This document shows positions 5,493 to 33,800 of a DNA stretch of 64,000 nucleotides, in pieces. Positions within the stretch are counted from its first letter, which is position 1. Every line of letters begins with the position of its first letter. The notes below the pieces were generated by a model, which saw only the letters and a list, made by a program, of their open reading frames with translations, did not search any database and was not told where the DNA came from. The position numbers were made by a program, and so were the translations under genes. This DNA is from a virus. The stretch lies in the IMG/VR virus record IMGVR_UViG_3300029305_003442, one strand, 5' to 3'.

Positions 5493-5493
5493 T

Positions 5494-14096: not shown

Positions 14097-14156
14097 TAAA
14101 TAAATTGGACAAATGATATTAGTTTCTTTGAAAGAAAATTGAAATTTAAAGAAGAA

Positions 14157-14195
14157 AAGGGATGAAGAATTAATTTCTTCATCCCTTATTTTAAT
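14157..14195 (+). terminator. Rho-independent terminator
   Basis: AAGGGATGAAGAA-ttaat-TTCTTCATCCCTT followed by ATTTTAATTT. Confidence 0.6.
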
Positions 14196-14217
14196 TTGTG
14201 CGAAAGGAGAAATTAAT

Positions 14218-17200: not shown

Positions 17201-20200
17201 ATGATGATTATGAATAGGAAATTAGTAATAGATTTTTAAGATTAGTTAGATGGTTTGTAAAAAATAATCCTTCTCAAGCTACTAACGCTCCATTAGAAAA
17301 TCCAATTGAATTTCCAACTTATATAATTAAAGGTATTAAAGAAACCGCTTATGCTAACTATAATGCTACTGAAATATTAGCTGGTACAGAAGTTAAAGAA
17401 GGACTTACATTTACAGTAGATTCTTCTGCCTATAGAGTTGCAAAAATGCTTAGAGAGAGTGAAAATTATTTAATTTTAGACTCTATTTTCTATCATTATA
17501 TTTTTATTGAACGACACAGTATGTTAGATAATGTTGCTAAGAACACGTTCTGGAATACTGAAGATGGTATTCATTGGGAATTAACTAAAAACTATGATAA
17601 TGATACAGCGGATGGAATTAATAATAGTGGACATTTAGCACTTGATTATGGCGTTGAAATTATGGATAATACAACTGATGGAAAAGAAATATTTAATGCT
17701 AGACCTTCATCATGGTTACATTTCGCACACGGATGTTTATCATTAAGAGAAAAAATGTATTCTGCATTATTTAATACAAAGGATGATACTAATGCTTGGT
17801 CTGCTAATAAATACTTAGAATTATTTGAAAGTTGGCAAAATGCTATTCCAGAAATTTGTTGGATTCAAGATTTTTATAGAAAATATTTTAGACCTAATGA
17901 TATTTATGGTGATGCATCTTATTTAGCGCGTTTAGCGAGTGGTAAAAAAACACATCAAAGAAAATAGTATGAACTTTATCAAGAACAATATCTTGATTCT
18001 GAATATAAAACATGTGCTAGACGTGGTGAAGCTATTTCCTGGCGTTCTATGTAGCCAAGTGATCCTGAAATTATGATTGATAATAAATATGTTTTAGGAG
18101 CTACTGTAAAAATGTATGCTGATGGATATTTTGCTATGGCTCTTGCTAATGGAGCTGGTACAGAAGAATCTGTAAATATTCATATAAGAGGTAAAAAAGG
18201 TTAGTTAATTAATTTCTCAAAATCTTAGGAAACAAATTTTAATGATGCGACTTGTTATATATATGGTCCAAGTTTATATCAAGAATTTATTCATGCTGAA
18301 TCAATATATCCTAGTTATATTACAGCTACAAATGCAACTAAATTAAGAAAATTTAGTCTTGAACCAATGTATAATAGTTAGAAAATTATGCTTAAAACTA
18401 GCTTATCTTTTGGAGATAATTTAGAAGAATTAATTTTAAAAGATTGTTTAAGTATTCTTGATGAAACTAGTGGAAAACCAACCAGTATTGACTTAAATTT
18501 AAAGAATTGTGTACGCTTAAAAAAGATTGATACAACTAATAGTACTTTATTTGCAAGTTATGAAATTGCAGATGGTGCTCCATTAGAAGAATTTTATATT
18601 CATCAACCAACTGGTTTATATTTATAGAATTTAAGATATTTAAATAAAAATAAATTCAATATTGAAAATTATGATTCATTAACATCTATTTAGATTAATA
18701 ATATTGATTATAATGATATTAATAGTATTGATATTTTAAATAATGTTTATAGACATAATAATTCAATTATATATAATTTAGAAAATGTAAAATGGAAGTT
18801 TAATAATGAAGATAATATCACCGATACTAATATTCCACTATTGGATTATTTGTTAACTCAATCATTAGCAATTGCTGGCAAAACGAAAGCTTTATCTTTA
18901 ACAGGTTCAGCAATTATACCATATGAAGCATATGATGGAATTAACTTATTAAGTTTATATGAAAAATATGGATTAGATTCTGGTGAAAAAGATAATACTT
19001 ATCCAAATTTAATTTTAAATTTCCTTGATAATAATGAAAATTCTAGATTATATACTATCAATATTGAAAATGGTGATGGTTAGATTGTTTGGACAAGATA
19101 GGTAGATAATTTTAATACATTAACAAATGAGATTTTATCCAATAGTGCTTTGGGAGCTTTTGACGCAACTGCTGCAATTGCTAAATCTTATAGCAATGAA
19201 TTTGTTTATAATTTTGCCAATTCTTGGGAATATATAATTAATAATGAAATTAAACCTATAGAACCATTAGATGAATAGGGAATGTATTAGTATTTAGATA
19301 TGTCTAAATTATAGAATGTTAATGAATCTAATATTACTATTCGTCCAGTATATATAACAGATACTCGTTATTATACAATTCAAATATATGATGTGTGGGG
19401 AGAAAAAATTCATGAAGCAAAAGTTGAATATTTAGCTTCTTTTGATGAAGTGCGTCCTCCAGTTCTTCCATTAATGAATGATTCTAATTTGGAATTAGAA
19501 AAGACATATTATTTAAAAGGATATGGAACTGTTAGAACTGATAATAGTATCATTAATGAACAAGATTGGAAAGCCACAGCTGATTTAATTTTATATACAA
19601 AATTTGAAGAAAAAAATGTATATGATATTGATTATTCTTCTTATTTAGATATAGATACAACTGGTACTGTATTAAATGGTTTAAAGAAAAATAAAAATGA
19701 TGAATATATTTATTAGGGGCAGAAAATTGTAATTCCAAAGTCTATTCAAACGATAGCAACTAAGGCTTTTGGTTTTGAACAAAACGATAAAGCACAAAGT
19801 AGTAAAACTAATTTAACAAAAGTTTTTTTTGAAACAAATAGTAATTTAATGTATATTAATAAAGCTGCTTTTGGTTATTCTAACCTTGAATATTTTGAAT
19901 TTGTTAATTCTATTGAAAGAATTGGTGAACAAGCTTTTAGAGGATGTAATTTATAGGCTATTAATTATAATGGTATATTAAAATTACCAACTTCTTTAAA
20001 ACAAATTGGTTAGCATGCTTTTAATAGTTCTTTCGGTTCAATAACATAGAATGTAGAATTATTCGTGCAGATCCCATCAACTATTATAGAAATAGATAGT
20101 TATGGTTTAGCTCACTGGGGACCAATAAAAGCTGATATTGCTATTGGTTCTTCCAATAGTTTTTCTAATTTAAGTTTAGAAAAAACTCAAGGTGGAGTAC

Positions 20201-20370
20201 CAATTATAAGTAGTAACTATGGTAATGATAAAGATATTTGTAATATTTATTTTTATACTAAAAATTATAAAGATAATAGCATTATTAATGGTATTCTTAT
20301 TGGTGAATTTTTTGATGATAAAAATTTAAGTAGTAATTATAATATTACTGTTCATTATATTGATTCGTGA
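14218..20370 (+). CDS. Giant virion protein (2050 codons, about 25 in-frame TAG) with central CotH-like (atypical kinase fold) domain and C-terminal BspA-type leucine-rich repeats
   Basis: GAAAGGAG SD; ATG 14218. All ten track ORFs 14218-20370 are frame 1, and every inter-ORF gap was translated and contains only TAG; TGA 20368-20370. CotH-like motifs: VKVRAQGTSSMDYGIAAYNMDIKF and FIERHSMLDNVAKNTFWNTEDGIHWELTKNYDNDTADG. LRR_5-like repeats: KAAFGYSNLEYFEFVNSIERIGEQAFRGC...LKQIGQHAF. Confidence 0.6.
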
Positions 20371-20379
20371 GGTAAGAAA

Positions 20380-20583
20380 ATGAAAAAAACAAAAATATAT
20401 ACTTATTTAGGTACAAATGGAACAATAACTTCTCCTATTCATTTAGAAAATATTTATAGTGTAGTAAAATATAATTTAATACCACAAGATGGTTATAAAT
20501 TAACTAATGATGGTATTAATTTTTATAACTATAAAGTTATAAGTGAAAATGAATTAGATCAATGGTATGAGGTTAAAGTTTAA
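20380..20583 (+). CDS. Small hypothetical protein (67 aa, no TAG)
   Basis: GAGGTAAGAAA SD, ATG 20380, TAA 20581-20583. Confidence 0.45.
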   Translation: MKKTKIYTYLGTNGTITSPIHLENIYSVVKYNLIPQDGYKLTNDGINFYNYKVISENELDQWYEVKV

Positions 20584-20588
20584 GGACA

Positions 20589-20612
20589 AAAATAATTAAA
20601 ATAAATTATTTT
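20589..20612 (+). terminator. Weak AT-rich hairpin (possible terminator of 20380-20583 gene)
   Basis: AAAATAATT-aaaata-AATTATTTT inverted repeat. Confidence 0.25.
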
Positions 20613-20637
20613 AATTGCATATAATATAGAAATAAAT

Positions 20638-20678
20638 ATTGATAGAGAATAATTTAAATTATTCTCTATCAATATAAT
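20638..20678 (+). promoter_or_regulatory. 36-bp perfect palindrome abutting a TATAAT -10 element, 23 nt upstream of gene 20701
   Basis: ATTGATAGAGAATAATTTAAATTATTCTCTATCAAT (20638-20673) then TATAAT 20673-20678; candidate operator/late promoter. Confidence 0.35.
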
Positions 20679-20700
20679 TCTATAGAAAGGATGAATATAA

Positions 20701-22605
20701 ATGATTACAAAAGTAACGGAACAAAATTCTGTAAAATATCAAAAATTATTCAGAGAAGCTGAAGAATTATTAAAAAGTACTGGTACTGAAGATATTGTAG
20801 TTGGAGAAACAATTGACGATTTATATGAATATTTTATTGCTTTTCCTTCAATCTTAAATGCGGCCGCTATTAAAGATGCTTCTGATGATAATAAAACTGG
20901 TGATCCTGAATATTACCAAAAGTATTTTACTATATTACCTTTAGATGAACCAGTATTTGAAATTAATGCTGATACTCGTGCGATTACAATTCCACAGCAA
21001 TTTAAAAGTATTGGTGTAACTGGTGATAATATTGCGGAAATTGTTTTCTTTTCTATTGATAGATTCTTTGATGCTGTTGATTTTGGTGCTCCTGAAATTG
21101 AAGCTGTAATTGAATGGCATCGTACTACCGGAGATAATCAAGATACTTATGTTGATAAAGCTTATATAAAAGAATTAACATTAAAAGAAAATAAAGTTTT
21201 AATTGGATGGGTTATTGATGAACGCATTACTGAAGAGCCTGGTACAATTGAATTTGCTGTAAGATTGGTTATGAAAGACGAAAAAAATGAAATTATTTAT
21301 AGTTTTAGTACATCAGCAGCAAAAGTAAATATTAATAAAACACTTAATTTTTATCCAGATGCTACTGAAATTGATAATACGGCGATTGCGCAAGTTAAAG
21401 CTCGTATTTTAGCAACTAATTCGCCTGATGTATCAAATGAAAATTCTTTAAATGCTCCAGCATATAATATTATAGAAGACGATGGTGATGAAATATCTAC
21501 AAATATTGATTCTATGGTTGATGATGAAGGAAAACCATTAACATATTCTTATACTTCTACTAATGATTTTTATGCCGATTTTAATGATGAAGATAATGCT
21601 TTAGTAGTAAATGTTAAAGCTAGAAGTACTAATGGTAATGGAGATGAACGTCTTCTTTATCGTTGGTTTAAATGGAATGAAAATGATAAAAACTGGCAAG
21701 CTTATCCTATTGGAGCTGTTGAAGCAGTTGATGGAAATCAAACTATTATTGATTCTATTGGTAAATTTAAATGTGTAGCAATAGATAATGTTGGTATTCG
21801 TAGAGCGACAAAAGATAGCCAAATTCTTCATATTCTTGGTCCATAGAAACCAGAAGTTAAAACTGCTGATGAAGGAGTTTATACTTCTATAATTTTAACC
21901 AATGAAGCAGATGGTATGGAATTAAATGTAAAACCAGGTCATGAAAATGATGTATTTTATGTTGATAATTATGATATTAATAATAAAACAAAATTATCTT
22001 ATGAATGGAAAAAGAGCAATAATCTTAATGATACTATTAAGATTGATATTGAAGATGCTTATGAACAAAAATATCAAGCAAAAGAAGAGGGCTATTATTA
22101 TGGTTATGCTATAACTTAGCGTAATTTAAAAATTGAAACATCTGATGAAGCTAGTATATATCGTGTAACTAAGCCTTTAATTCAACCTACTTTATAGTAT
22201 ACTGTATTAGGATTATAGAATGGTACTAATGGTAAAATTGGAGAAACTATTGAAATTGATTTTAGCACTTATGATGATGAAGGCAATGTATTAACAACTT
22301 ATGCTTATGATACAATTGATTATTAGTGGTATCGTTCTATGAATCAAAATCAAGGTGATAGTAGTTATCAAAAAGTTGAAGATGAAGACTATAATCAAGG
22401 ACATCTTACAGCTACTGATAGAAAAATTTTATTTACACCAAAAACTCCAGCAGCTTATAGAATTAAATTATTGGTTAAACGTAATGGATAGAGTATTCCT
22501 GAAAAAGATTTTGATGAAAATGATTCATCCACTTGGCCAATGTTAAATCAATTATAGACCAATGGAACTTATGATGAATTAACTATTTCAATGAGCATAG
22601 ATTAA
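20701..22605 (+). CDS. Virion-associated protein (634 aa) with Ig-like C-terminal region
   Basis: ATG 20701; 381 codons TAG-free, then frame 1 continues through 8 TAG (track ORF 21916-22119 same frame) to TAA 22603-22605. Confidence 0.55.
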
Positions 22606-22627
22606 TCAATAAAGGAGGTTATAAGAT

Positions 22628-23242
22628 ATGATAACCAATCCGGTTGATTATTACAATAAAATATTATAGATAAAAGATTTAAATAAACCTCAATATGCGC
22701 TTTTGCTTCCAACAGATGAAACAATTTATGATATTGATTTATCTACAAGAGAAGTTAAAGCACCTAAATTTTTAAGTTTACACAAAGATCATTATGCGGA
22801 AACCATTTATTTTAAAGTTGATAGATTTTTTGATAATATGGATTTAGCAGATACAGTTTGTACTATTTAGTATGTAAATGATGGTGTAAAAAAACTTACA
22901 GGTGAAGCTGATGCGGGTCGCATTTATTTAGTACCATTTTTTGATATTTTTACATATCGTGATGACAATAAAATGCTTATTCCTTGGCAAATTAGTGGTT
23001 TAGTAGCTAGAGCTCCTGGTAATATAACCTTTTCATTTAGATTTTATAAATTAAATGAAACAGGAGATTTTATTTATTGTTTAAATACTTCTCCTGCTAC
23101 AAGTAAAATTCTTAATGGATTAGATTTAAAACTTCCAGAAAATGATGAAGGTTATATGGAAGCAGGAATTGTAGATGATATTTATCATTAGATAGATATT
23201 GTGAGTAAAGCTACTGATTTATATTGGATTGAAGTTGAATAA
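22628..23242 (+). CDS. Hypothetical protein (204 aa) sharing a DRFFD-containing N-terminal domain with the preceding gene (paralog)
   Basis: AAAGGAGG SD; ATG 22628; frame 2 with track ORF 22973-23191; TAA 23240-23242; AETIYFKVDRFFDNMDLADTV vs AEIVFFSIDRFFDAVDFGAPE in 20701 gene. Confidence 0.5.
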
Positions 23243-23246
23243 AAAT

Positions 23247-23275
23247 TTGACATAAATAAAAATTTATGTTATAAT
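23247..23275 (+). promoter_or_regulatory. Perfect consensus sigma-70/sigma-A promoter
   Basis: TTGACA (23247-23252) - exactly 17 nt - TATAAT (23270-23275), 35 nt upstream of ATG 23310. Confidence 0.6.
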
Positions 23276-23309
23276 AATATAAAAGAAAAGAAAGGTTAGG
23301 TATTTAATT

Positions 23310-23615
23310 ATGGCAACTACTTTAACAATTAATTATTCTGTAAATGGAGTAGAAAAGAATCTTATATTAACTGAAATTACTAGATGTTCTGAAGATTTTA
23401 AATCTGAATATGTTTCTTTAAATATTTCTTGTAATGATATTGTTGAAAATAGTATTTTAGGTGAATTAATGAATTCTATAATTTCTGATATCATTTTTAT
23501 AGAAGACTCTGAAACTACCACTTTTACTAATTATACTCGTCTTTATAATATTAATCGTTCTTATAAAGGTGAAGGTTCTTCTTTAACTTTTAATTTAAGA
23601 GAATATTTTAATTAA
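23310..23615 (+). CDS. Hypothetical protein (101 aa, no TAG), first gene after consensus promoter
   Basis: Track ORF; TAA stop. Confidence 0.5.
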   Translation: MATTLTINYSVNGVEKNLILTEITRCSEDFKSEYVSLNISCNDIVENSILGELMNSIISDIIFIEDSETTTFTNYTRLYNINRSYKGEGSSLTFNLREYFN

Positions 23616-23651
23616 TTTATTAAATTAAAATGAATAAAGGAGGAATAATTT

Positions 23652-24821
23652 ATGGCAGCTGATGATAAAATATTAGCAACGTAGATTAGTACAAATTCTT
23701 CTTCCTGGTATCAAAGATTAAGAGCTATTTAGGCAAATAATAAAACAGGTATAGGCGGGTCTGCTTTATAGCAGACCGCCGACCCTGGTATCACTTCAGG
23801 AACGAAGATGACAGCAACACATATTAATAATTTTATTAATGCTTTAACAGCTTTAAAATCAAATGTATTTTTAGCTTATGCGGATTGGACTAATTATACT
23901 CCTTCTACTGTTTCTAGTGGTGGAAAAGCTAATGCTTCTACTACATAGACTAAAATTAATAATATGTTAACATCACTAGAAAGTATATGTAGTAATTGTT
24001 AGACATATAGTACAAATAGTTATTCTAATACTTGTTCAAATAATGCTACAACTAGTTATTCAACCTATTCGGAAAGTATTGATAAATATAATTATTCTAA
24101 TACATGTAAAACTACTTATAATTCCACAGAATCTACAAACTCTACTTGGAGTGAAAGCTGTAAAACAACTTCTAATAGTACTAATAGCTATTGTTCTGAT
24201 GCTAATTGTAGCGCTTATAGCGAGAATGAAACTTGTGCAGAATTTTATGTTGGTAATAGCACTTATTCTACAGATAGCACTAGCTCAAATTCTACTTATG
24301 GAGTTGGAGATTCTACTTAGGCAACAGATGCTACTTCTGTTTGTGCTACTTTATCAACTTATAATGATGAAATATCTTATAGTACAGATTGTAGTGATGG
24401 TTGTTGGGATTGTACTTTTCATTCTTATTGTCCTGCAGCTGAAGTAGCTACTTATAGCGTCGGAGAGTGTTCAACTAATGCTACTAATTCTGAAAATTCA
24501 ACAGAAGGAGTTTGTAGCACTTGTAGTACTAATTCTACTGATTTTTATTGTAATGAAAACTCTTGTACTGAACATACAAATAGAGGTACATATTCAAATC
24601 ATTCACAATGTAGTACTTATGGAAAAAACAGTACATATAATGATACTTGTCAAACTTGTGAGACTGATTCAACCACATCAAATACAACTTATACTTAGTC
24701 AAATTCTACATATACTAACACTAATGATGGTTATAGTACATATTCAAAAAAAGCTACATATGGAACATATACTAATACAAGTGGTAATTCAACATATTAG
24801 ACTTATACGGTAAAAAATTAA
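23652..24821 (+). CDS. Cys/Ser/Thr/Asn/Tyr-rich low-complexity protein (389 aa, 22 Cys, 9 in-frame TAG); candidate substrate of adjacent radical-SAM enzymes
   Basis: AAAGGAGG SD; ATG 23652; frame 3 verified codon by codon to TAA 24819-24821 with only TAG interruptions. Track ORFs 24043-24447 and 24478-24813 are other-frame shadows of this low-complexity gene. Confidence 0.6.
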
Positions 24822-24851
24822 TTGAAATGAGATAAAGGAGAAAATATTTTA

Positions 24852-26210
24852 ATGTTACAAGATAGAGAAACAATTATTTTATATACTACAGCAGTATGTA
24901 ATTTAAATTGTACTTATTGTTTTATTGATAAAAATCCAAGTTTAAAAAAGATAGATCAATGGCTTGATGATAGTTTTTTAAAAACTCCAGATTATTATTT
25001 TGAATATGCAAAAAAAGCCGTTTTACAAGAAAAACTAAAAGAAGTATAGATTTGGGGTGGAGAACCTTTTTTGGGTATGCATAGAGCCTATGCAACAATA
25101 GATAAATTTATTAATTATTTTCCAAATTTAAAAAATTTTATGACTTCTACAAATTTTGTATCTCATTGTTTTTTTGAAGAATTTTATGGACTTCTTGATA
25201 TTTTTAGAAAGCATCCAAATAGAAATTTTACATATAGTTTATAGTTATCATTAGATGGTGTAAAGGAAATAAATGATATTAATAGAGGTAATGGAGTTAC
25301 TGATCGTTTTATTATTAATTTTGAAAAATTTGTTAAAGAATTACAAACTTTATTACCAAACAATTTAACATTAAAAATGCATTTAAAGCCCACTATTGAT
25401 ACAAATTCTTTGAAAAAATTATAGACTAAAGAACAAGTTTTTGAACAATTTATCTTTTTTGAAAGCTTCAATGAAGTATATTTGAAATATAATAAAAAAA
25501 ATAATTTACTATTTTCACTTCCAATTCCTAATACAGCTTGCCCATCTCCTCATACTCAAGAAGATGGAATAATGTTTGCAAATTATTGTAAAATAACAAG
25601 AGAGCTTGAAAAAGAAAATAAAAATAATAAAATTTTTAAATTTTATAATAATATTACAAGCTTTACTCCAAGAAGAAAAATTCAATATGACAAACTTTCA
25701 TTATCAGGATATTGTCAAGGTCATTGTGGTAATGGAAAAAGAGCTATTGGTCTTTTACCTAACAATATGGTTTCTTGTTGTCATAATGGTTTTGTTGATT
25801 TGCTAGCTGAATATAAAAAGAATGTATTAACAAATAGTGAACATATGGATAATGTTACTATTGAAAAAAGTTTATTTAAAAATAAACGTAATACTTTAAT
25901 TTTCCCTTATGATAGTAAAGAATTTGAAATGTATCAAAAACAATTAGAAGTTTTTTATCAAAATGATGATACTGCCAAAATTTCTAATTGTGCTTCTTTA
26001 ATTAAATTATTGGCTGATTTTGAACAAATTGATAAAAAATATCAAGATAAAAAAGAAGCTGTTAAAGGTGCTTATTTTATTTTTAATACTACATCATATT
26101 GTGTTAGAGATAATTTAGGTGTGACTGGAAGCATCTATATGTATCCTGTTGGTTTAATTAAATTATTGCTAAATGGAGCTAGAGAATATATTGAGGAAGG
26201 ATGTAATTAA
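24852..26210 (+). CDS. Radical SAM / SPASM-domain enzyme #1 (452 aa, 3 in-frame TAG)
   Basis: AAAGGAG SD; CNLNCTYC (CxxxCxxC) at residues 16-23; IWGGEPFL; SLDGVKEINDINRG (anSME-like). C-terminal Cys cluster CPSPH...CQGHCGNGKRAIGLLPNNMVSCCHNGF consistent with SPASM/twitch auxiliary cluster. Track ORFs 24852-25049 and 25482-26210 share frame 3. Confidence 0.75.
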
Positions 26211-27599
26211 ATGGCAAAGTGTTTAAATTTTTAGGAAGAAAAAGATGTTATTTTATGGTCATTAATTAATGATACATTTGGAAGACTTTTTTCTAAAGAA
26301 AAAAAAGAAGATATTGAACATGATATGGGGTTAGAAATTTATATAACCCCTGAATGTAATTAGAATTGTTCTTATTGTTATTTATGTAAAAATGGTGATG
26401 AACTTTATCCTAAAGAATTAAGAAATCCTACAATAATTTTAAATAATTTAAAAATTATGTTAGATTATTGTATTGATAATAATTGGAATCCTGGAAGATT
26501 TGATTTTTTTTCTGGAGAAATTTGGGATACTGATTTAGGTTATAATGTTTTAAGCATTACAGAAGAAGCAATAGAAAGAGGTTTTCACCCTAGACTAATT
26601 GTAATTCCATCAAATTTTAGTTTTATTTTAAATGAAGAAGCTAAAAATAGAGTTGAAAAATTTATGGAAAAATGTAGACAATTTAATATAAAGCCATGTT
26701 GGTCTTGTTCTAATGATGGTTTATTGTTAGATTTAGAGACAAGACCATTTAATTCAGATGAATTAAATGCAAAAAAAGATACTGAAGATTATTATAAAAA
26801 ATTATTTGAATTTTGTAAAAAATGGAATTTAGGTTTTCATCCAATGGTGGCAGCACACGGAATTGAAAAATGGTCAGAAAATTTTTTATGGTGGATGTCA
26901 GAATTAAAGAAATATAAATTTGAAAGAAATTCTTCAATAATGTTTTTAGAAGTTAGAAACGATGATTGGACAGATGATAAAATTTATCATTATTTAAAAT
27001 ATTTAAATACTAGTATTAATTATTTAAATGATGAATGTATTAATTTAAATACATTGTCTTTTGAAGATTATGTTAGAAAAACTAATAAAAATATTAAATA
27101 CAATTATACACCTGTTATTTTAGAAAAATCAAGTTTATAGCCTGGATGCACTATTCATAGATCTTTAGTTATTCGTTTAGGTGATTTAGCAATAGTTCCT
27201 TGTCATAGAACTTCTTATGAAGAATTTATTATAGGACATTTTAAAGTAGAGAATAATAAAATTATAGGAGTTACAGCTAAAAATATTCAAATAATGAATT
27301 AGGTATGGCTAAATAATATGAGTGGTAATGCTAAATGCACTAATTGTCCTTATAGCAATTACTGTATGAAAGGATGTTATGGTTCTTAGTTTGAATCTAC
27401 TGGAGAATTATTATATCCAATAGAATCAGTATGCAATTTATATAAAGCAAGAGCAATATTTATTTTTTATAAATATTTAAAAATGGGTATTTATAGAGAA
27501 GATAATCCCGAGGATAAAAAATATTTTGATTTTATTCAATCAATTAAAGATACGAAGGAGTTTAAAAAATGGTACAAAATTGTTTAGGAATTGATTTAA
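26211..27599 (+). CDS. Radical SAM / SPASM-domain enzyme #2 (462 aa, 4-5 in-frame TAG)
   Basis: ATG immediately after upstream TAA (translational coupling); ITPECN(Q)NCSYCY CxxxCxxC; C-terminal CTIHRSLVIRLGDLAIVPCH...AKCTNCPYSNYCMKGCYG SPASM-like Cys motifs; frame 3 with track ORF 26457-27140; TAA 27597-27599 if TAG 27585 is read through. Confidence 0.7.
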
Positions 27600-28168
27600 T
27601 TAATATTTATGAAAATCTTATCATAAATGGATTAAATGTAGAATTAGCAAAAGATATTGAAAAATATTTGATTTATTTTTTAGACAATAACACTAATGAA
27701 AATTAGTTATTATTATATAATTTATTAAATATTTTAAAACGTCAATAGAATACATCAATTCTTCTAAATTTTTTAATTCAAGAAGTTGAATTAAAGTTAT
27801 TAAGATTAAGTTTTTCTAATAATGATATAAAAAATAATAAAGATTGTTATAATATTTCATCTTGTCAAAAAAATGAATCTAAAGAAGAATTAAAGAAAAT
27901 TTTAAAAGTAACTAATAAAGATTTATTCCCTCCAAAAGGGACTACAACTCGTATTATTAATAAAAGAAAAGAAGAAAATGAAGAACATGAATATGTTTTA
28001 GAGATAGATGATCAAGGTAATGTTTTAGAAATTTTAGAACATTATATAACAAAAAATGATGCAGATTCTATTGATATATTAAATGATTCTCCTTTAAGCA
28101 AACTTAAAGAAAAATATCTTAAAGAAGATAAAGAAAATAATTCTTTAACAGAAAATGATTTAGAATAA
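27569..28168 (+). CDS. Hypothetical helical protein (199 aa, 2 TAG) within rSAM cassette
   Basis: AAGGAG SD 27555-27560; ATG 27569; frame 2 to TAA 28166-28168. Confidence 0.45.
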
Positions 28169-28193
28169 TATTAATAATTTAAATATTTCTAAA

Positions 28194-29270
28194 ATGGGAT
28201 TAGGAATTATGCGTCATAATTCTAATCAACAATATACAAAACAACTAATAGAATATGCTTTAAATAATAAAATTAATTATTTTGAAGCTTGTGATTTCTA
28301 TTTACAAAACGCTTGTGAAATACGTCTTGGGGATGCTTTAAAATAGCATCCTCGGACTTCATATAAATTATGTGATAAACTTCCATTATCTACAATTCCT
28401 TATTTTATTCAAAAAAATAAAAATTGGAATTTAAATGATTATTTTAATAATCAATTAGCAAAATGTAGAACTGATTATTTTGATGTTTATTTGATTTAGG
28501 CTTTAGATGAACGTAATTTTAATTACTTGGAAAAATATCAAATTATTGATTTCTTTTTAAAACAAAAAGAACAAGGAAAAATTAAATTATTGGGTTTTTC
28601 TTTTCATGGAAAAGTTGATATTTTAAAAAAATTATTAGAAATGAAATGTTGGGATATCGTTTAGTTTCAATTAAATTATTATGATTGGATTTTAGGTGAG
28701 GCGAAAGAATTATATTTTTTAACAAAAGAATATGATTTACCTATTATTACAATGGGACCAACTAAAGGCGGATTATTAATAAATAATTTACCTAAAAAAT
28801 CATTAGATAGATTAAAAGAAAACAATATTAATCCAGTCTATTTATGTTATTCTTTTTTAGAAACTTTAGACAACGTTAAAATTATTTTATCAGGAGCAGA
28901 AACTTATGAAATGATTAAAGATAATTTAAATTATTTTGAAAATGAATCTCATAAATTAACTCCAGAAGAGTGGTAGCATATTAAACAAAATATTCAAGAT
29001 TATCAAGAATAGAGTTTAATTCAATGTACGGGATGTCGTTATTGTGTTCAAAGATGTCCTGCTAATTTACCAATAGATAAAATTTTTAAAGAATATAATA
29101 ATTTTATTCAATCTAAAGATTTATAGTCAAGAGAATTTTTATATTAGAATATTCATAGTTCTAACTCTACACAGAATTGTAAAAATTGTGGTCAATGTGT
29201 AAAAATTTGTCCGCAACATTTAAATATTCCAGAAATTTTTCATAAACAAATTTTCCCAGTAAGGAGATGA
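28194..29270 (+). CDS. Aldo/keto-reductase-family oxidoreductase fused to C-terminal 2x[4Fe-4S] ferredoxin domain (358 aa, 8 TAG)
   Basis: ATG 28194 in frame 3 with track ORF 28752-28976; C-terminal CTGCRYCVQRCP and CKNCGQCVKICP ferredoxin motifs; TGA 29268-29270. Confidence 0.6.
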
Positions 29271-29274
29271 AAAA

Positions 29275-29685
29275 ATGGTAGTATCTGAATTAGTAGCTAC
29301 AATTTTTCAAGTTTGTATAATTCCATTATTGGGTGTATTAACTACTTTTTTTGTAAAATGGGTTAATTCCAAAAGCGCAGAAATCTCAAATAAAATTGAT
29401 GATGAAACATTAAATAAATATTTAAATATGCTTACTGAAACAATTAATACTTGCGTTTTAGCAACCAATTAGACATATGTTGAAAGTTTAAAACAACAAG
29501 GAAAGTTTGATGCGGAAGCGCAGAAAGAAGCATTTAATTTAACTTGTTCAGCAGTAATGGATATTTTAAGTGAGGACGCAAAAGAATATTTAACTTCTGC
29601 TATTGGAGATTTACAAATTTATATTACAAAGAAAATTGAAGCTGAAGTACATACAAATAAAGTTACACCTTGTGTAAATCAATAA
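29275..29685 (+). CDS. Putative holin (136 aa; N-terminal TM helix then amphipathic region), LL-H/phiLC3-holin-like
   Basis: AAGGAG SD; MVVSELVATIFQVCIIPLLGVLTTFFVKW TM segment; one in-frame TAG 29470-29472; TAA 29683-29685; last gene before terminator. Confidence 0.5.
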
Positions 29686-29695
29686 AATAAATATA

Positions 29696-29735
29696 GGGGA
29701 ACCTTTAGTATAATCTAAAGGTTCCCCTTATTTTT
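29696..29735. terminator. Bidirectional rho-independent terminator between convergent holin (+) and LytTR regulator (-) genes
   Basis: GGGGAACCTTT-agtataatct-AAAGGTTCCCC with T-runs on both sides (TTATTTTT on +; TATATTTATTTT on -). Confidence 0.6.
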
Positions 29736-29742
29736 GTTTATA

Positions 29743-30447
29743 TTAAATTCTATTATAAGTAAGCCAACGTTCACGAATTAAATCATGAGATTTTTTGGGA
29801 AAATATAATACTTCATCATTTTCAAAAGTTAAATGGTCAGTATCAATAATCTTAATTTCACTTAAATTAATCAATAAACTTGGTGCTAAAAATAAAAATT
29901 GCGGATGTTGGTTCAATGGAGTTATTGCTTTTTCAAAAGATGAGCGCAATGACTAACCATCAAACATTGTTCCATTTTTTAAATGATAACATAAACAACG
30001 TTTTACAATGTTAATATAATTAACTTGACTTGAGCGTATTCTTCTTTCACCTTCCGCAGTTTTAATTACCAAACTATCTTCTCTTATCTCTTTTTTAATT
30101 ATATTAAATAATTCAAACAATTCTTCTTTTTCTATTGGTTTTAAAAAATAATGATCTGCATGCACTTTATAAGCAGGATAAGCGAGAGAAGGATCTTCTC
30201 CAATAAAAATAAAATAACTATTTGGGTCTATTTTATCCATGCGATGACTTAACTCATATAGATTTTCTGATGAATCAGTGTCCATAATATAAACATCAAA
30301 ACTTGCAGGAACAACAAGTAAATCTTCTGATTTATCAAAAATTGATACTTTTGCCACAGACTTAGATTCTATTAAATATTCTTGAATCATCTCACGCAAT
30401 TCATTTAAATATGTTTTGTTGTCATCATAAATAGCAATAGAGAGCAT
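29743..30447 (-). CDS. LytTR-family two-component response regulator (REC + LytTR DNA-binding domain; AgrA/ComE-like), orphan; one in-frame TAG at 29953-29955
   Basis: Track ORFs 29953-30447 and 29743-29949 are the same frame separated by TAG+1 codon; REC features (IAIYDDN, VYIMDTD, YFLKP) and LytTR pattern (IKTAEGERRIRSSQVNYINIVKRCLCYHLKNGT...FLFLAPSLLINLSEI); AAGGAGG SD. Confidence 0.7.
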
Positions 30448-30482
30448 ATTTAAACTCCTCCTTTAAAATTTTTTACAATATT

Positions 30483-30511
30483 ATTATAACATAAATTTGT
30501 GAGAAAATCAA
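30483..30511 (-). promoter_or_regulatory. Consensus sigma-A promoter for LytTR regulator gene (member of repeated promoter family)
   Basis: Minus strand TTGATT-17-TATAAT (fwd aatcaa 30506-30511 ... attata 30483-30488). Confidence 0.5.
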
Positions 30512-30759
30512 ATTTTTTTGTGTAAAAAGTGTAAAAAATTTTAATTTTTGAGTATTTGATTTTTAAATTTACTTTTTGACATTCGGATTTTAAAAATAAA
30601 ATTGTAATTTTGAAAAATTGAATAAAAATTGTAAGGATGAAAAATCAGACAAAAAATGTGTGAGTGTTTCTTGTTTAAAAATCTGAAACAATTTTTATAT
30701 AGTAATGGAAGGGTAAGAGAAAAATAAAAAAAATGAATAAATACCTTGGAGGTGAATAT

Positions 30760-31236
30760 ATGAATTATCAATATAATCAGTAGCAGGTGAGTCCACCGCA
30801 GAATTAGACGACTCAGCAGTATTCTTACCAACGACAAGTTCCTTATACTTCTGGAACTTGGAATGCGAGAGTCAGACCGGTTTCTTCAATTGAAGAAGTA
30901 AGAGCATCTTCAATTGATTTTGATGGCTCAATTTTTTATTTCCCAGATGTTGCTAATAAAAAAATCTATACTAAATTTATTAATTTAGATGGCTCTGTGG
31001 CAATTAATGTATATGAGTTAAAAGAAATGCCAACAGGTTAGGCAGCAGATTCATCTTACATTACAAGAGAAGAATTTGAAAACGTAATTATGTAGTTAAA
31101 AATGATGTATAATAATTCTTCTGCGCCTTCTACTCCAATAGAAGAATAGCAATAGGTATAGTAGTAGATGAATAGTAATTAGTTTGCGGCACCACCCGCA
31201 CAATAGCAACATAATGTTTCGCCATTACAATTTTAA
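30760..31236 (+). CDS. Gln-rich protein (158 aa, 11 TAG codons clustered in poly-Q tracts)
   Basis: GGAGGTG SD; ATG 30760; frame 1 verified to TAA 31234-31236; GAA-TAG-CAA-TAG-GTA-TAG-TAG-TAG-ATG and CAA-TAG-CAA runs. Confidence 0.55.
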
Positions 31237-31249
31237 GGAGGTATGAAGA

Positions 31250-31495
31250 ATGGCACAAGTTGATCCGAGACAATTAATAGCTATGATTAGAAATGGTCAA
31301 AATCCTCAACAACTTATGTTAAGTGTTTTAGAGACGATGCAAGATACTCCTTTTGGAGCCAATTTATTGAATCTCGCTCGCAATGGTTAGACTGCGGAGA
31401 TTGAAAAAATTGCTCGGAATATCACATCTCAAAGAGGTATGGATTATGATAAAGAGTTTAATGCCTTTAAACAATAGTTTTTTGGCTTTAAATAA
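31250..31495 (+). CDS. Small hypothetical protein (81 aa, 2 TAG)
   Basis: GGAGGT SD; ATG 31250; TAA 31493-31495. Confidence 0.45.
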
Positions 31496-31532
31496 ATAAA
31501 ATATTTTTTTTAATTAAAGGAGGGTTTCTTTT

Positions 31533-32327
31533 ATGTTTAATTCTAATGGTTACAGTTTGGCAGATATCGTTGCCGCAACAGGTGGCGGTAGAGAGAATTG
31601 CGGCGGCTTCGGCGGCTGGGGCGGAGATGGATGGTGGATTATCCTCTTATTCTTGCTCTGGGGTAACAACGGCTGGGGCGGCAATCAAGGTGGACGTGGA
31701 ACAGTTCGTGAAGAAATTGCTTATGGTTTTGATATGAACGGTTTAGAAAATAGCGTCCGTGGTGTTCAGCAAGGTATTTGTGATGGTTTCTATGCCATGA
31801 ATACTGGTATGTTAAATGGATTTAGTAACATTCAAAATACTCTATGTCAAGGTTTCTCTGGTATCAATCAAGGTACAGCTCAGTAGACATTTGATTTATC
31901 TACTCAGTTACATGGTATGGCAGCTGATAATGCGGCTTGTTGCTGCGAAACTCAGCGCGCTATTGAAAGAGGATTTGCTGAAACCAACTATAACATGGCA
32001 ACTCAAGCTTGCGATACTCGTAGAGCAATTGCTGATAGCACTCGTGATATTATTGACAGTAATAACGCAGGTGTTCGTTCTATTTTAGATTTCTTAACTC
32101 AGGATAAGATTGCTACTCTTACCGCAGAAAATCAGAGTCTAAAATTCGCAGCTTCTCAGGCAGCTCAGAACGCTTTCATTGCAGCTAATCAGGAAGCTCA
32201 AACCGCAGAACTTATTCGCAGACTTGATACCCCATGTCCTATTCCCGCTTATGTAGTTCCTAATCCTAATTGTTGCTATCCATCTTATGGATATGGGTAT
32301 GGCAACACTGGATGCTGCGGTGGTTAA
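31533..32327 (+). CDS. Gly/Trp-rich membrane protein with Cys-rich C-terminus (264 aa; GGFGGWGGDGWWIILLFLLWGNNGWGG ... CCYPSYGYGYGNTGCCGG); GC-rich codon usage
   Basis: AAAGGAGGG SD; track ORFs 31533-31886 and 31917-32327 same frame joined by one TAG. Confidence 0.55.
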
Positions 32328-32352
32328 TTAACAAAGGAGGTAAAAAATCTGT

Positions 32353-32772
32353 ATGGAAATTATTGCTAATGCTTTATAGACAGTTCCAGCAAATCAGACT
32401 GTTTATTTCACAGATACCGCCGTATGCGGTGGCCCATCTATGACTCATAGAGCTGGTAGTGGTTTAATTACTCTTAGAGGAATTACTAATCAATGTAGAG
32501 CAAGATTCCGCATCACTTTTGGAGCAAATATTGCTGTTCCAACAGGAGAAACAGTTGGACCAATTTCATTGGCTATTGCGATAGAGGGTGAACCTCTTCA
32601 AGCTACTATAATGATTGAAACACCAGCGGCTGTTGAAGAGTTCTCAAATGTTTCAAGAACTACCTTTATTGATGTTCCTCGTGGATGTTGTGTAAGTGTA
32701 AGTGTAAGAAATGTAAGTGATATTCCAGTAAATGTACAAAACGCAAACTTAATTGTTGAACGTGTTGCTTAA
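32353..32772 (+). CDS. C1q/TNF-like jelly-roll protein resembling BclA C-terminal / spore-appendage (DUF3992-like) domains (139 aa, 1 TAG)
   Basis: AAAGGAGG SD; ATG 32353 in frame with track ORF 32440-32772; alternating beta-strand pattern, CC pair near C-terminus (PRGCCVSVSVRNVS). Confidence 0.45.
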
Positions 32773-32790
32773 TGAAAGGAGGTCTTATAA

Positions 32791-33438
32791 ATGGAGAAAA
32801 GATTAGAACATATGAAAGAATCTTTAATGGCTTGCGTTGAAAGTCAATTAACTCATTTAGATACAGTTGATACTAAAGAATTAGGTGAAGCCATTGATAT
32901 GATTAAAGACCTTGAAGAAGCAATCTATTATTGTACTATTACAAAAGCAATGAAGGAACAGGATAAAGGAGAAAAAGAATCTCATAAATATTATCCAGTA
33001 ATGTATAATAGAGATATGGATAGAGATATGGGAAAAATGTATTATGAAAACCCAAATTATATGGGTGGTAATGATACAAAACGTCAATATTCATCTGGAA
33101 ATGGAGGAGGCAACTCCTCCTCCATGAGTAATTCTTCTGGAAGCGGAGGAGGTAATTCATCCTCTGGAAATACTGGTTCAAAACAATATAGTGAAACAGA
33201 ATATAATTTAATGCGCGACCAGCGTGAAGGACGTAGTCCTCAGTCGCGCCGCATGTATATGGAATCAAAAGAAATGCATTCAGATAAAGCAACTCAAATG
33301 CGTGAATTAGAAACTTATATGCAAGAGTTAACTCAAGATGTAGTTGAAATGGTTGAAGGTGCAACTGTTGAAGAAAAGCAGTATTTAAGTAAACGAGTAG
33401 CAGCTCTTGCAAACAAATTGGCTCAATTAAATGATTAA
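32791..33438 (+). CDS. Hypothetical protein (215 aa) with central Gly/Ser/Asn-rich linker; no TAG
   Basis: AAAGGAGG SD; track ORF. Confidence 0.5.
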   Translation: MEKRLEHMKESLMACVESQLTHLDTVDTKELGEAIDMIKDLEEAIYYCTITKAMKEQDKGEKESHKYYPVMYNRDMDRDMGKMYYENPNYMGGNDTKRQYSSGNGGGNSSSMSNSSGSGGGNSSSGNTGSKQYSETEYNLMRDQREGRSPQSRRMYMESKEMHSDKATQMRELETYMQELTQDVVEMVEGATVEEKQYLSKRVAALANKLAQLND

Positions 33439-33694
33439 CATTAATGGTGAACAATGGAGAGTGTTTTTAACCTCTCCATTTCACCCTGCTTTAAAACGCA
33501 GTGATGGTGCTTATACTCTAGGATGCTGTGATGATGTAACAAAAACAATTTATATAAGTAATGATGTAAGTGATAAATATTTAAAAAAAGTTTTATGCCA
33601 CGAACTCACTCACGCCGCAATGTTTAGCTACAACGTAGATTTGACTTATGAGCAAGAGGAAGTTCTCGCTGATATTATAGCAACATATGGATAG
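33431..33694 (+). CDS. Small HExxH metallopeptidase-like protein (87 aa; HELTHA), ImmA/IrrE- or SprT-like
   Basis: Track ORF; overlaps upstream stop; CHELTHAAMF motif. Confidence 0.45.
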   Translation: MININGEQWRVFLTSPFHPALKRSDGAYTLGCCDDVTKTIYISNDVSDKYLKKVLCHELTHAAMFSYNVDLTYEQEEVLADIIATYG

Positions 33695-33763
33695 GAAATT
33701 ATTCATATGGCAAATCTTCTCTTTAAGAGGTTAAAAGATGAAAGAGAAGAAGAAAGAAAAAAT

Positions 33764-33800
33764 GGGAGTATCTAATAATTTAGATACTCCCATTTTTTTT
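33764..33800 (+). terminator. Rho-independent terminator ending the + strand island
   Basis: GGGAGTATCTA-ataatt-TAGATACTCCC followed by TTTTTTTT. Confidence 0.6.

What the first reader, a model, noticed from the sequence alone, without database searches (positions are those of the whole stretch)
30760..31236. Poly-Gln tracts mixing CAA/CAG and TAG indicate TAG = Gln
Eleven TAG codons sit inside Gln-rich stretches of one small gene. Examples are GAA-TAG-CAA-TAG-GTA-TAG-TAG-TAG-ATG and CAA-TAG-CAA-CAT. The N-terminus has the same pattern (MNYQYNQ-TAG-QVSPPQN-TAG-TTQQYSYQRQ). Interchangeable use with CAA/CAG in low-complexity Q runs is the classic signature of TAG-to-Gln reassignment.
Basis: partly seen in the sequence, partly recalled or inferred. 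Interest (0 to 1): 0.6.

Follow-up and report, generated by a model that had tools for sequence, protein, structure and literature searches.

The report
Phage reads TAG stop as glutamine
This window comes from an uncultivated large phage that uses the stop codon TAG as a glutamine codon, mostly in its tail and lysis genes; this is a known phage trick (genetic code 15), seen here in a lineage that has not been described.

Summary
Gene 30760-31236(+) has 11 in-frame TAG, 7 CAA and 5 CAG codons, and ends in TAA.

The interpretation, TAG = Gln, is supported by independent tests:
- All 54 genes called in the window end in TAA or TGA, and together they hold 171 in-frame TAGs.
- In tblastn against 165 related loci, window TAGs pair mostly with real CAA/CAG codons. 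Gln is the maximum-likelihood identity, and this also holds when only the 34 standard-code relatives are used.
- At the 12 well-conserved TAG sites, 9 are Gln.
- In an aldo/keto-reductase enzyme, TAG codon 170 aligns with Gln in 68 of 76 homologs.
- A relative with 89% protein identity has CAA where the window has TAG.

The target gene is not special. It is Gln-rich, and its TAG share of Gln codons (48%) matches that of its module (37%).

TAG is about five times denser in the tail/lysis module than in the replication module. This fits the published model in which recoding delays late-gene expression.

No suppressor tRNA lies in the window or in 18.7 kb of identical flanking sequence. Six relatives carry tRNA(CUA) genes about 55-60 kb downstream of the homologous gene.

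This is a new member of a known kind, and of low-to-moderate interest.

The parts
30760..31236 (+). Target gene: 158 codons with 11 in-frame TAG, 7 CAA and 5 CAG, ending in TAA. It encodes a Gln-rich protein of unknown function with a conserved core at about residues 38-110 and a conserved C-terminal ...QF.
   Evidence: There are 775 homologs. The core columns are invariant and F158 is nearly invariant. There is no Pfam hit and only a weak phrog_21718 match.
30749..30755 (+). Shine-Dalgarno-like GGAGGTG, 4 nt upstream of the ATG at 30760. It marks 30760 rather than 30733 as the likely start.
   Evidence: Sequence read directly.
30781..30807 (+). N-terminal TAG codons 8 (30781-30783) and 16 (30805-30807), inside the Q-rich N-terminus.
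   Evidence: Both are also TAG in the 89%-identical relatives L001 and L002.
31039..31095 (+). TAG codons 94 (31039-31041) and 112 (31093-31095), in the conserved part of the protein.
   Evidence: Codon 112 is CAA in L001/L002, and codons 94 and 112 are real CAA/CAG codons in L003. Across relatives, site 112 pairs with Gln in 51 of 99 aligned residues.
31147..31206 (+). C-terminal Q-tract with TAG codons 130, 132, 134, 135, 136, 141 and 149, including the TAG-TAG-TAG triple at 31159-31167.
   Evidence: Translation must pass all of them to reach the conserved terminal QF.
43..33775 (+). Plus-strand late module: tail fibre and baseplate-like genes, a radical-SAM cluster, a holin and the six-gene cassette. 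It holds 22 genes and 145 in-frame TAGs, which is 13.9 per 1000 codons and 37% of all Gln codons. Stops are TAA in 18 genes and TGA in 4.
   Evidence: A tape-measure gene lies immediately upstream in the identical contig L166.
33802..63983 (-). Minus-strand replication and nucleotide-metabolism module: RuvC, dUTPase, NrdG, NrdD, guanylate kinase, split Pol III alpha, helicases, RecJ-like, DnaB, AAA_24 (Sak4-like), ligase and GyrA. The 31 genes here plus the minus-strand gene at 29743-30447 hold 26 in-frame TAGs, which is 2.7 per 1000 codons and 8% of Gln codons. None ends in TAG.
   Evidence: Pfam matches run across the TAG positions in RuvC (4-147) and AAA_24 (21-204).
30760..33775 (+). Conserved six-gene cassette: the target, an 81-aa gene, the phrog_16490 gene, the phrog_20016 gene, a 215-aa gene and a small metallopeptidase-like gene. 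It is syntenic in many relatives.
   Evidence: Two of its genes are also adjacent in Clostridium perfringens phage CPD1.
28155..29270 (+). Aldo/keto reductase fused to a 2x[4Fe-4S] domain, with 8 TAGs. I used it as an independent enzyme test of the TAG identity.
   Evidence: Pfam PF00248 plus Fer4. TAG codon 170 aligns with Gln in 68 of 76 homologs. TAG codon 115 aligns with His in 57 and Gln in 14.

Best explanation
The window belongs to a large, AT-rich (28% GC) tailed phage, probably with a Clostridia/Firmicutes host, that uses genetic code 15. In this code TAG is a sense codon for glutamine, and only TAA and TGA terminate.

The target gene is an ordinary Gln-rich late gene. TAG, CAA and CAG are synonymous, so its Q-tracts mix all three. 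In a 28% GC genome CAG is rare and TAG has largely replaced it.

The mechanism is inferred, not shown for this genome. A phage-encoded suppressor tRNA with anticodon CUA, lying outside the window, would be charged with Gln by host enzymes and would out-compete host release factor 1. Replication genes, which have few or no TAGs, can be translated by the naive host. TAG-rich tail, lysis and cassette genes would yield full-length protein only once the suppressor has accumulated, so recoding would also act as a late-gene timer.

Shown here: TAG is a sense codon, its meaning is Gln, it is never a terminator in the window, and it is enriched in late genes.

Inferred: the tRNA source, the charging route and the timing role.
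For: 1. The frame is intact. There are 11 TAGs and no TAA/TGA in 158 codons, a result reached by 7 of 100,000 shuffles.

2. The pattern is genome-wide. Treating TAG as sense raises the total length of ORFs of 100 aa or more from 15,621 to 22,786 aa and the longest ORF from 836 to 2,075 aa. There are 171 in-frame TAGs in 54 genes, and none of the 54 ends in TAG (46 TAA, 8 TGA).

3. Gln frequency is restored. In the late module it rises from 2.3% to 3.7% when TAG is counted, compared with 3.2% in the early module.

4. The residue identity is Gln. Among 2,969 residues encoded by ordinary codons in 165 related loci and aligned with window TAGs, Gln is the most frequent (907). The log-likelihood for Gln is -7,583 against -9,214 for Glu, the next best. 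Restricted to 34 standard-code relatives, the values are -1,884 and -2,159.

5. The per-site result agrees. Of 12 TAG sites where one residue reaches 60% or more, 9 are Gln. Examples are holin site 66 (85 of 86), gene 32353 site 9 (80 of 80), tail gene 5494 site 343 (66 of 71) and tail gene 7706 site 345 (61 of 74).

6. A control supports this. Gln is the plurality residue at 53.5% of true CAA/CAG sites, at 36% of TAG sites, and at 3.3% or fewer of sites of any other residue.

7. The codon-level reciprocal test agrees. Window TAG pairs with CAA 726 times, TAG 265 times and CAG 181 times. TAG in relatives pairs with window Gln 506 times and with window TAG 265 times. All 101 stop codons counted under window TAGs in the first 85 loci are TAG.

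8. A close relative shows the substitution directly. L001/L002 (89% identity) have CAA at codon 112.

9. An enzyme gives an independent test. In the aldo/keto reductase, TAG codon 170 aligns with Gln in 68 of 76 homologs from a 1.84-billion-protein library.

10. TAG is enriched in late genes: 13.9 against 2.7 per 1000 codons.

11. Six contigs of relatives carry tRNA(CUA) genes.

12. The phenomenon and the timing model are published. See bioRxiv 10.1101/2021.08.26.457843, PMC9523058 (mass-spectrometry proof in crAss-like phages) and PMC10607447.
Against: - No tRNA was found in the window (ARAGORN, Rfam). None was found in 10,996 bp of identical sequence upstream or 7,755 bp downstream. The decoding agent for this genome is therefore unseen.
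- Many TAG sites are poorly conserved and align with Glu, Asn, Thr or Tyr. Glu is the runner-up. In Firmicutes that use the GluRS/GatCAB route, a Glu outcome is mechanistically conceivable.
- One conserved site, aldo/keto reductase codon 115, aligns mostly with the catalytic His (57 His against 14 Gln).
- The related loci are not independent of each other, so the likelihood margins overstate significance.
- No protein-level data exist for this phage.
- The timing role is taken from the literature and was not tested here.
Confidence: 0.9

Rival explanations
1. TAG is still a stop. The region would then be a decayed pseudogene or a set of short fragments, and the apparent long frame would be accidental.
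For: Under table 11 the gene breaks into pieces. No suppressor tRNA lies in the window.
Against: The frame is free of TAA and TGA, a result reached by 7 of 100,000 shuffles. Homology to 775 proteins continues across the TAGs to a conserved C-terminal QF. The same pattern occurs in 37 of the window's 54 genes, including essential tail genes, the holin and RuvC. No gene would end in TAG under the recoded model, while under the standard code the longest ORF is 836 aa instead of 2,075 aa.
Confidence: 0.01
2. TAG is a sense codon for a residue other than Gln. Glu is the most plausible candidate, for example a suppressor charged by a non-discriminating GluRS and not amidated. Other candidates are His, Lys, Tyr, Trp and pyrrolysine.
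For: Glu is the second most frequent aligned residue and the second-best likelihood. Sites such as tail gene 7706 codon 43 (Glu in 58 of 81) and aldo/keto reductase codon 115 (His in 57 of 76) are not Gln in most homologs. ARAGORN labels CUA tRNAs 'Pyl' by default.
Against: The likelihood gap to Glu is more than 1,600 log units over all loci and 275 in standard-code loci. Of the 12 strongly conserved sites, 9 are Gln against 1 each for Glu, Ile and Lys. Gln is the plurality residue at 36% of TAG sites against 2.0% of Glu sites and 0-1.1% of Trp, Tyr and His sites. In alignments of 60% identity or more, 70% of partners are CAA, CAG or TAG. No pyl genes were seen in the window annotation.
Confidence: 0.04
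3. There is no dedicated phage suppressor. TAG would be read through by a host near-cognate tRNA such as tRNA-Gln(CUG), or the host itself would use a TAG-recoded code.
For: No tRNA was found in 82.7 kb of this phage's sequence. According to the preprint, only 35-40% of alternatively coded phages have detectable suppressors.
Against: With 171 TAGs, a TAG-TAG-TAG triple and genes carrying 23-25 TAGs each, low-efficiency readthrough would give negligible yields. Six relatives encode tRNA(CUA) about 55-60 kb downstream of the target homolog, which would fall 21-27 kb beyond the window. The early genes avoid TAG, which is unexpected if the host already read TAG as Gln. About 100 kb of the genome is unseen.
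Confidence: 0.05

Closest known systems
Genetic code 15 (TAG to Gln) in crAss-like phages, predicted from genomes and confirmed by metaproteomics (PMC7886860; PMC9523058)
   Same: In-frame TAG aligns with Gln. TAG is concentrated in late structural and lysis genes. TAA and TGA are kept as stops. The host is presumed to use the standard code.
   Different: This is a different phage lineage. None of the four searches of the GenBank phage collection matched a crAss-like phage. Matches were to phAss-1, an unclassified human gut phage contig, two unclassified metagenome-derived viruses from animal faeces, and phages of Enterococcus, Clostridium perfringens and Thomasclavelia. Contigs of relatives reach 100-197 kb. 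No protein-level proof exists for this phage.
Alternatively coded gut phage clades of Borges et al. (Lak, Jade, Sapphire, Agate, Garnet, Amethyst, Topaz; bioRxiv 10.1101/2021.08.26.457843)
   Same: Recoding is biased to structural and lysis genes, and use in replication genes is variable. Suppressor tRNAs occur in some members. Clades mix codes 11, 15 and 4. The same mix appears among this phage's relatives: 111 TAG-recoded, 9 TGA-recoded and 34 standard-code loci. Homing-endonuclease genes inside early genes carry recoded stops, and the GIY-YIG gene at 57770-58759 here has 6 TAGs.
   Different: I could not place this phage in any named clade, because the window has no terminase and I ran no phylogeny. 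No release factor or aminoacyl-tRNA synthetase gene was seen in the window.
phAss-1 / proposed Phassvirus (OQ749652; PMC10607447)
   Same: It is a human-gut tailed phage with TAG read as Gln, a predicted Clostridia host, many tRNAs and three tRNA-Sup(CUA) genes. Its tail protein is homologous to window gene 7706-10534.
   Different: That protein is only 27.6% identical, and there is no nucleotide-level match. phAss-1 is therefore at best a distant relative and not the same genus.
Laboratory amber suppression in E. coli (supE, tRNA-Gln with a CUA anticodon) - from general knowledge, not tested here
   Same: A tRNA with anticodon CUA charged with Gln competes with RF1 at UAG.
   Different: Here suppression would have to be efficient enough to read 20 or more TAGs per gene. 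It is also a fixed property of the genome rather than a mutation.

Membership tests
TAG-to-Gln (code 15) recoded phage | Multiple in-frame TAG codons inside conserved protein-coding genes whose frames are otherwise open | tested here: met
   There are 171 in-frame TAGs in 37 of 54 genes. Pfam domains and homology run across them. The target has 11.
TAG-to-Gln (code 15) recoded phage | TAG positions align with glutamine encoded by CAA/CAG in homologs | tested here: met
   Gln is the top aligned residue and the maximum-likelihood identity in all loci and in standard-code loci alone. Of 12 conserved sites, 9 are Gln. The control is and the codon-level reciprocal test. Aldo/keto reductase site 170 is Gln in 68 of 76 homologs.
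TAG-to-Gln (code 15) recoded phage | TAG is not used as a terminator; genes end in TAA or TGA | tested here: met
   None of 54 genes ends in TAG (46 TAA, 8 TGA). This covers the window only, about one third to one half of the genome.
TAG-to-Gln (code 15) recoded phage | Phage-encoded suppressor tRNA with anticodon CUA | tested here: inconclusive
   None was found in the window or in 18.7 kb of identical flanks. One is present in six contigs of relatives. The rest of this genome could not be reached. Published surveys find suppressors in only part of recoded phages, so this feature is typical rather than obligatory.
TAG-to-Gln (code 15) recoded phage | Suppressor tRNA carries glutamine identity | tested here: inconclusive
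   Nearest-neighbour typing of the relatives' CUA tRNAs gave tRNA-Gln for three of six by small margins, and the method's leave-one-out accuracy is 69%. Three of them show a 1:72 mismatch and G73 (read). From general knowledge these are Gln-like features, but that is not a test.
TAG-to-Gln (code 15) recoded phage | Peptide-level evidence that Gln is inserted at TAG | not testable with these tools
   This needs metaproteomics of the source samples, as was done for crAss-like phages (PMC9523058).
TAG-to-Gln (code 15) recoded phage | Recoded codon enriched in late (structural and lysis) genes relative to early genes | tested here: met
   TAG density is 13.9 against 2.7 per 1000 codons. TAG makes up 37% against 8% of Gln codons.
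Phassvirus (phAss-1-like genus) | Genus-level nucleotide similarity and synteny with OQ749652 | tested here: not met
   Megablast of 24 kb of the window found only a 76%-identical NrdD segment in Thomasclavelia phages. The tail protein is 27.6% identical to the phAss-1 one.
Crassvirales (crAss-like phages) | Homology of hallmark proteins to crAss-like phages | tested here: not met
   tblastn of the tail protein and the target protein against 50,697 GenBank phage records returned no crAss-like phage. Hallmark genes such as terminase and the major capsid protein are not in the window, so the test is partial.

The most novel reading that the evidence does not exclude
This phage belongs to a Firmicutes-phage lineage whose members share a homologous tail protein but split among three genetic codes: 111 TAG-recoded, 9 TGA-recoded and 34 standard-code loci in my sample. 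In this reading, the extremely TAG-dense Q-tract gene at the head of a conserved six-gene cassette is more than a by-product of Gln richness. With 7% TAG codons and a TAG-TAG-TAG triple, it would act as a suppressor-dosage gate, delaying expression of the cassette until suppressor tRNA levels are high.
Probability: 0.07. Interest if true: 0.5.

Novelty: new member of a known kind. Interest (0 to 1): 0.25.

Why it matters
The practical consequence is that this genome and its many relatives must be annotated with translation table 15. Under table 11 roughly a third of the coding capacity of the window disappears and the tail and lysis genes are shredded.

There is also a methodological warning. 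Large protein databases already hold code-15 translations of such phages. A 'Q' in a database homolog is therefore not independent evidence for Gln unless the underlying codon is checked.

Biologically, the window adds a well-sampled, uncultivated lineage to the set of phages with late-gene-biased recoding. It appears to infect Clostridia/Firmicutes and is identical across several ENA samples and one JGI sample. Its relatives use three different codes, which could help study how code switches arise.

None of this is conceptually new.

Tried and rejected
**Finding this phage's own contig and suppressor tRNA**
- An exact protein look-up of the truncated GyrA ORF found nothing.
- An exact 41-mer from the right end was absent from viral contigs and metagenome contigs.
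- The search for related loci with the single target protein and with GyrA chose unhelpful patterns and returned nothing.
- Look-ups that did work gave identical contigs reaching 11 kb upstream and 7.8 kb downstream. Neither contains a tRNA.
- I spent the last protein search on the DUF2828 protein that neighbours the suppressor tRNA in relatives, hoping to land on the 183-kb contig of the closest long relative. No listed hit was on that contig.
- tblastx of the right flank against the tRNA-bearing loci found no overlap.

**Function of the target protein**
- There was no Pfam hit.
- A PDB profile search gave nothing below E = 0.2.
- The AlphaFold2 model had mean pLDDT 58 and pTM 0.26. It was too poor to justify a fold search, so I ran none.

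**Other dead ends**
I used P0001 and a TAG-free fragment instead.
- I fetched MT835469 (176 kb) whole as a possible complete relative. It is distant, has no in-frame TAG, and looks TGA-recoded if anything, so it was not informative.
- Typing the CUA tRNAs by similarity was inconclusive.

**Idea rejected**
- The target is not preferentially recoded. Its TAG share of Gln codons does not differ from the rest of the module (Fisher p = 0.37). The homolog in L003 has only 2 TAGs.

Full report
**Observation**

It has an ATG preceded by GGAGGTG, 158 sense codons and a TAA stop. It holds 11 in-frame TAGs (codons 8, 16, 94, 112, 130, 132, 134, 135, 136, 141 and 149), 7 CAA and 5 CAG. All quoted codon strings are present.

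The frame is free of TAA and TGA, while the other two frames of the same stretch hold 8 and 15 such codons. Only 7 of 100,000 shuffles of the gene reproduce a frame free of TAA/TGA. The expectation from off-frame stop frequencies is 5.5e-8.

**Context**

The window is 28% GC and has two divergent modules, with a GC-skew switch near 34 kb.

The plus-strand genes (43-33775) are late genes:
- a 1,785-aa fibre-like protein whose start lies upstream of the window;
- baseplate and tail proteins;
- a 2,050-aa LRR protein;
- a radical-SAM cluster;
- a holin;
- a six-gene cassette that begins with the target.

The ENA contig L166 is 100% identical to window 1-14362. It shows a tape-measure gene of more than 3,300 aa immediately upstream.

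The minus-strand genes (33802-63983) encode RuvC, dUTPase, NrdG, NrdD, guanylate kinase, a split Pol III alpha, helicases, RecJ-like, DnaB, an AAA_24 (Sak4-like) ATPase, NAD-ligase and GyrA.

Reading TAG as sense raises the summed length of ORFs of 100 aa or more from 15,621 to 22,786 aa, and the longest ORF from 836 to 2,075 aa. Recoding TGA gives much less. Across 54 called genes there are 171 in-frame TAGs, and no gene ends in TAG (46 TAA, 8 TGA).

TAG density is 13.9 per 1000 codons in the late module against 2.7 in the early one. Counting TAG as Gln brings the late module's Gln content from 2.3% to 3.7%, close to the early module's 3.2%.

**Which amino acid**

The target has 775 database homologs, and the 89%-identical P0001 shows Q at all 11 positions. 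That is not independent evidence. The database proteins of these relatives were themselves translated with TAG = Q (the look-ups report 'translates_to_query: no'), and at the DNA level L001/L002 carry TAG at 10 of the 11 sites. So I worked at the codon level.

1. L001/L002 have CAA at codon 112. The 61%-identical L003 has real CAA/CAG codons at the equivalents of codons 94 and 112.

2. I fetched 165 related loci and ran tblastn with TAG masked as X.
   - Among 2,969 residues encoded by ordinary codons and aligned with window TAGs, Gln is the most frequent (907, against Glu 322).
   - I estimated substitution profiles from the same alignments. Gln is the maximum-likelihood identity (-7,583, against -9,214 for Glu).
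   - The ranking holds in the 34 loci with no in-frame stops (-1,884 against -2,159). It also holds in the TGA-recoded and the TAG-recoded subsets.

3. Per site, 12 of the 47 sites with 8 or more observations are dominated at 60% or more by one residue. Nine of those 12 are Gln. Examples are the holin (85 of 86), gene 32353 codon 9 (80 of 80), tail gene 5494 codons 95, 311 and 343, tail gene 7706 codon 345, and genes 35736 and 35998. In RuvC, 3 of 4 sites have a Gln plurality.

4. As a control, Gln is the plurality residue at 53.5% of true CAA/CAG sites, at 36% of TAG sites, and at 3.3% or fewer of sites of every other amino acid.

5. The test works in both directions. Window TAG pairs with CAA 726 times, TAG 265 times and CAG 181 times. 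TAG in relatives pairs with window Gln 506 times and window TAG 265 times. In alignments of 60% identity or more, 70% of partners are CAA, CAG or TAG. In the first 85 loci, every stop aligned under a window TAG was itself TAG (101 of 101).

6. An enzyme with mostly cellular-type homologs gives independent support. The aldo/keto reductase-ferredoxin fusion at 28155-29270 has TAG codon 170 in the motif DIV-X-FQLNYYDW. This codon aligns with Gln in 68 of 76 full-length homologs from a 1.84-billion-protein library. In the same alignment codon 115 aligns with the catalytic His in 57 homologs and with Gln in 14, and the closest homologs have Gln. This is the clearest discordant site. It does not generalise, because His is otherwise almost never aligned with TAG.

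I conclude that TAG encodes Gln. Glu is the only remotely competitive alternative.

**Is the target special?**

It is not. TAG makes up 11 of its 23 Gln codons (48%), against 37% for the rest of the late module (Fisher p = 0.37). Its high TAG count simply reflects 14.6% Gln content. The L003 ortholog has only 2 TAGs and lacks the long C-terminal Q-tract.

Translation must still pass all seven C-terminal TAGs to reach the terminal QF motif, which is nearly invariant in the family.

The protein family has no Pfam domain, only a weak phrog_21718 match, no PDB relative, and a poor AlphaFold model with pLDDT 58. Its core domain also occurs in Clostridium perfringens phages, for example CPD1_036. 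There a homolog of window gene 31533 lies two genes downstream of it. That points to a Clostridia-type host range. Its function remains unknown.

**Decoding machinery**

No tRNA is present in the window (ARAGORN, Rfam). None is present in the identical flanks of 10,996 bp upstream or 7,755 bp downstream.

A generic pattern for a CUA-anticodon tRNA returned 120 arbitrary IMG/VR hits. Six of them lie on contigs already in my list of about 150 relatives' contigs: L173, L182, L224, L229, L244 and L260. ARAGORN confirms a tRNA(CUA) in each, inside a tRNA cluster.

In the three of these relatives that also carry the target gene, the suppressor lies 54-61 kb downstream of it. By synteny this is about 21-27 kb past the window's right end, computed from the contig coordinates.

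Similarity typing of these tRNAs was inconclusive. tRNA-Gln was the nearest neighbour for three of six, and the method's accuracy is 69%. The existence of a suppressor in this genome, how it is charged, and competition with RF1 are therefore inferences from relatives and from the literature.

**Comparison with known systems**

TAG-to-Gln recoding in phages is established. It was predicted for crAss-like and other gut phages and proven by metaproteomics (PMC7886860, PMC9523058). Borges et al. surveyed it across clades. They describe late-gene bias, suppressor tRNAs in a subset of phages, clades that mix codes 11, 15 and 4, and a timing and lysis-control model.

The relatives sampled here show the same mix: 111 TAG-recoded, 9 TGA-recoded and 34 standard-code loci.

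The closest described phage is phAss-1, which reads TAG as Gln, has three suppressor tRNAs and is predicted to infect Clostridia. Its tail protein is only 27.6% identical to the window's, and there is no nucleotide-level similarity.

The window is therefore a new member of a known kind.

**Rivals**

- 'TAG is a stop and the gene is a pseudogene' is excluded by frame integrity, homology across the TAGs and the genome-wide pattern.
- 'TAG encodes another residue' is disfavoured by every tally, although only proteomics can exclude Glu formally.
- 'Readthrough without a phage suppressor' is unlikely given 20 or more TAGs per gene and the suppressors found in relatives. It cannot be excluded until the full genome is seen.

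**Verdict**

The phenomenon is already known, so interest is modest (0.25).

Noticed in passing
window 23652-29270 (+): A 389-aa Ser/Thr/Cys/Asn/Tyr-rich low-complexity protein (23652-24821, 8 TAGs) is followed by four more genes. Two are radical-SAM/SPASM-like (24852-26210 and 26211-27599). They give weak matches, far below family cut-offs, to the peptide-maturase families DynA, PapB, SCIFF and CcpM. Then come a 199-aa ORF and an aldo/keto reductase fused to a 2x[4Fe-4S] domain. The set looks like a protein or peptide cross-linking cluster inside the late module, upstream of the holin.
   Followed up: partly
window 40673-45733 (-): DNA polymerase III alpha is split into two ORFs. ORF 44309-45733 holds the PHP domain and the N-terminal part of the polymerase domain. 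ORF 40673-42985 holds the rest of that domain plus the finger and HhH domains. A GIY-YIG/NUMOD3 homing-endonuclease gene (43303-44085, 1 TAG) lies between them. This looks like an intron-type or split-gene insertion, but Rfam found no group I intron at gathering score.
   Followed up: partly
window 57770-58759 (-): A GIY-YIG endonuclease-domain gene in the otherwise TAG-poor replication module carries 6 TAGs, the most on the minus strand. All six are in its N-terminal coiled-coil half. Borges et al. likewise note that a homing endonuclease inside an early gene is preferentially recoded.
   Followed up: no
loci L006-L165 (relatives): Phages sharing the tail protein or the target gene fall into three code states: 111 TAG-recoded, 9 TGA-recoded and 34 standard-code loci, with 11 ambiguous. 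Code has therefore switched repeatedly within this group.
   Followed up: partly
P0001, P0006, P0121 with L001-L005 and L166: The big protein database already stores code-15 translations of these phages. The genes do not translate to the stored protein under table 11. A 'Q' in such a homolog can therefore itself be a TAG, which makes it circular evidence unless the DNA is checked.
   Followed up: yes
window 30760-33775; L287 (Clostridium phage CPD1, locus positions 4845-6817): The target heads a six-gene cassette that is syntenic in many relatives and sometimes inverted. It includes phrog_16490, a Gly/Trp/Cys-rich protein with a hydrophobic segment, then phrog_20016, and a small SprT/IrrE-like metallopeptidase. 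The target and the phrog_16490 homolog are also neighbours in C. perfringens phages. The function is unknown.
   Followed up: partly
window 29743-30447 (-): A lone minus-strand gene (234 aa, 1 TAG) sits between the holin and the target. Its L003 ortholog has a weak Response_reg hit. It is followed by a 310-bp AT-rich intergenic region upstream of the target. It may be a regulator placed inside the late module.
   Followed up: no
window 23956-24795 (-): An antisense 'ORF' of 279 codons with 27 TAGs overlaps the low-complexity gene 23652-24821. It is almost certainly an artefact of reading TAG as sense on the wrong strand. It shows that code-15 ORF calling can create false genes.
   Followed up: no
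L182, L244, L260 (relatives): A conserved DUF2828 (PF11443) protein of about 507 aa lies within 1-5 kb of the suppressor tRNA(CUA). The family is very large, with more than 7,999 database hits at E <= 1e-20.
   Followed up: partly
L166, L292-L295: The window sequence is 100% identical to contigs from several independent ENA assemblies (ERZ27248306, ERZ27248446, ERZ27248314, ERZ27248351) and to one JGI metagenome (3300018494). This phage therefore recurs across samples. The flanks add a tape-measure gene upstream. Downstream they add GyrA, GyrB, RNase H, an amidase-type lysin, PhoH-PIN and a flotillin-like gene.
   Followed up: partly
L003 positions 16156-20402, compared with window 37550-39841: In the closest long relative the NrdD gene is interrupted by GIY-YIG, HNH and LAGLIDADG endonuclease genes. 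The window's NrdD is intact at 763 aa.
   Followed up: no
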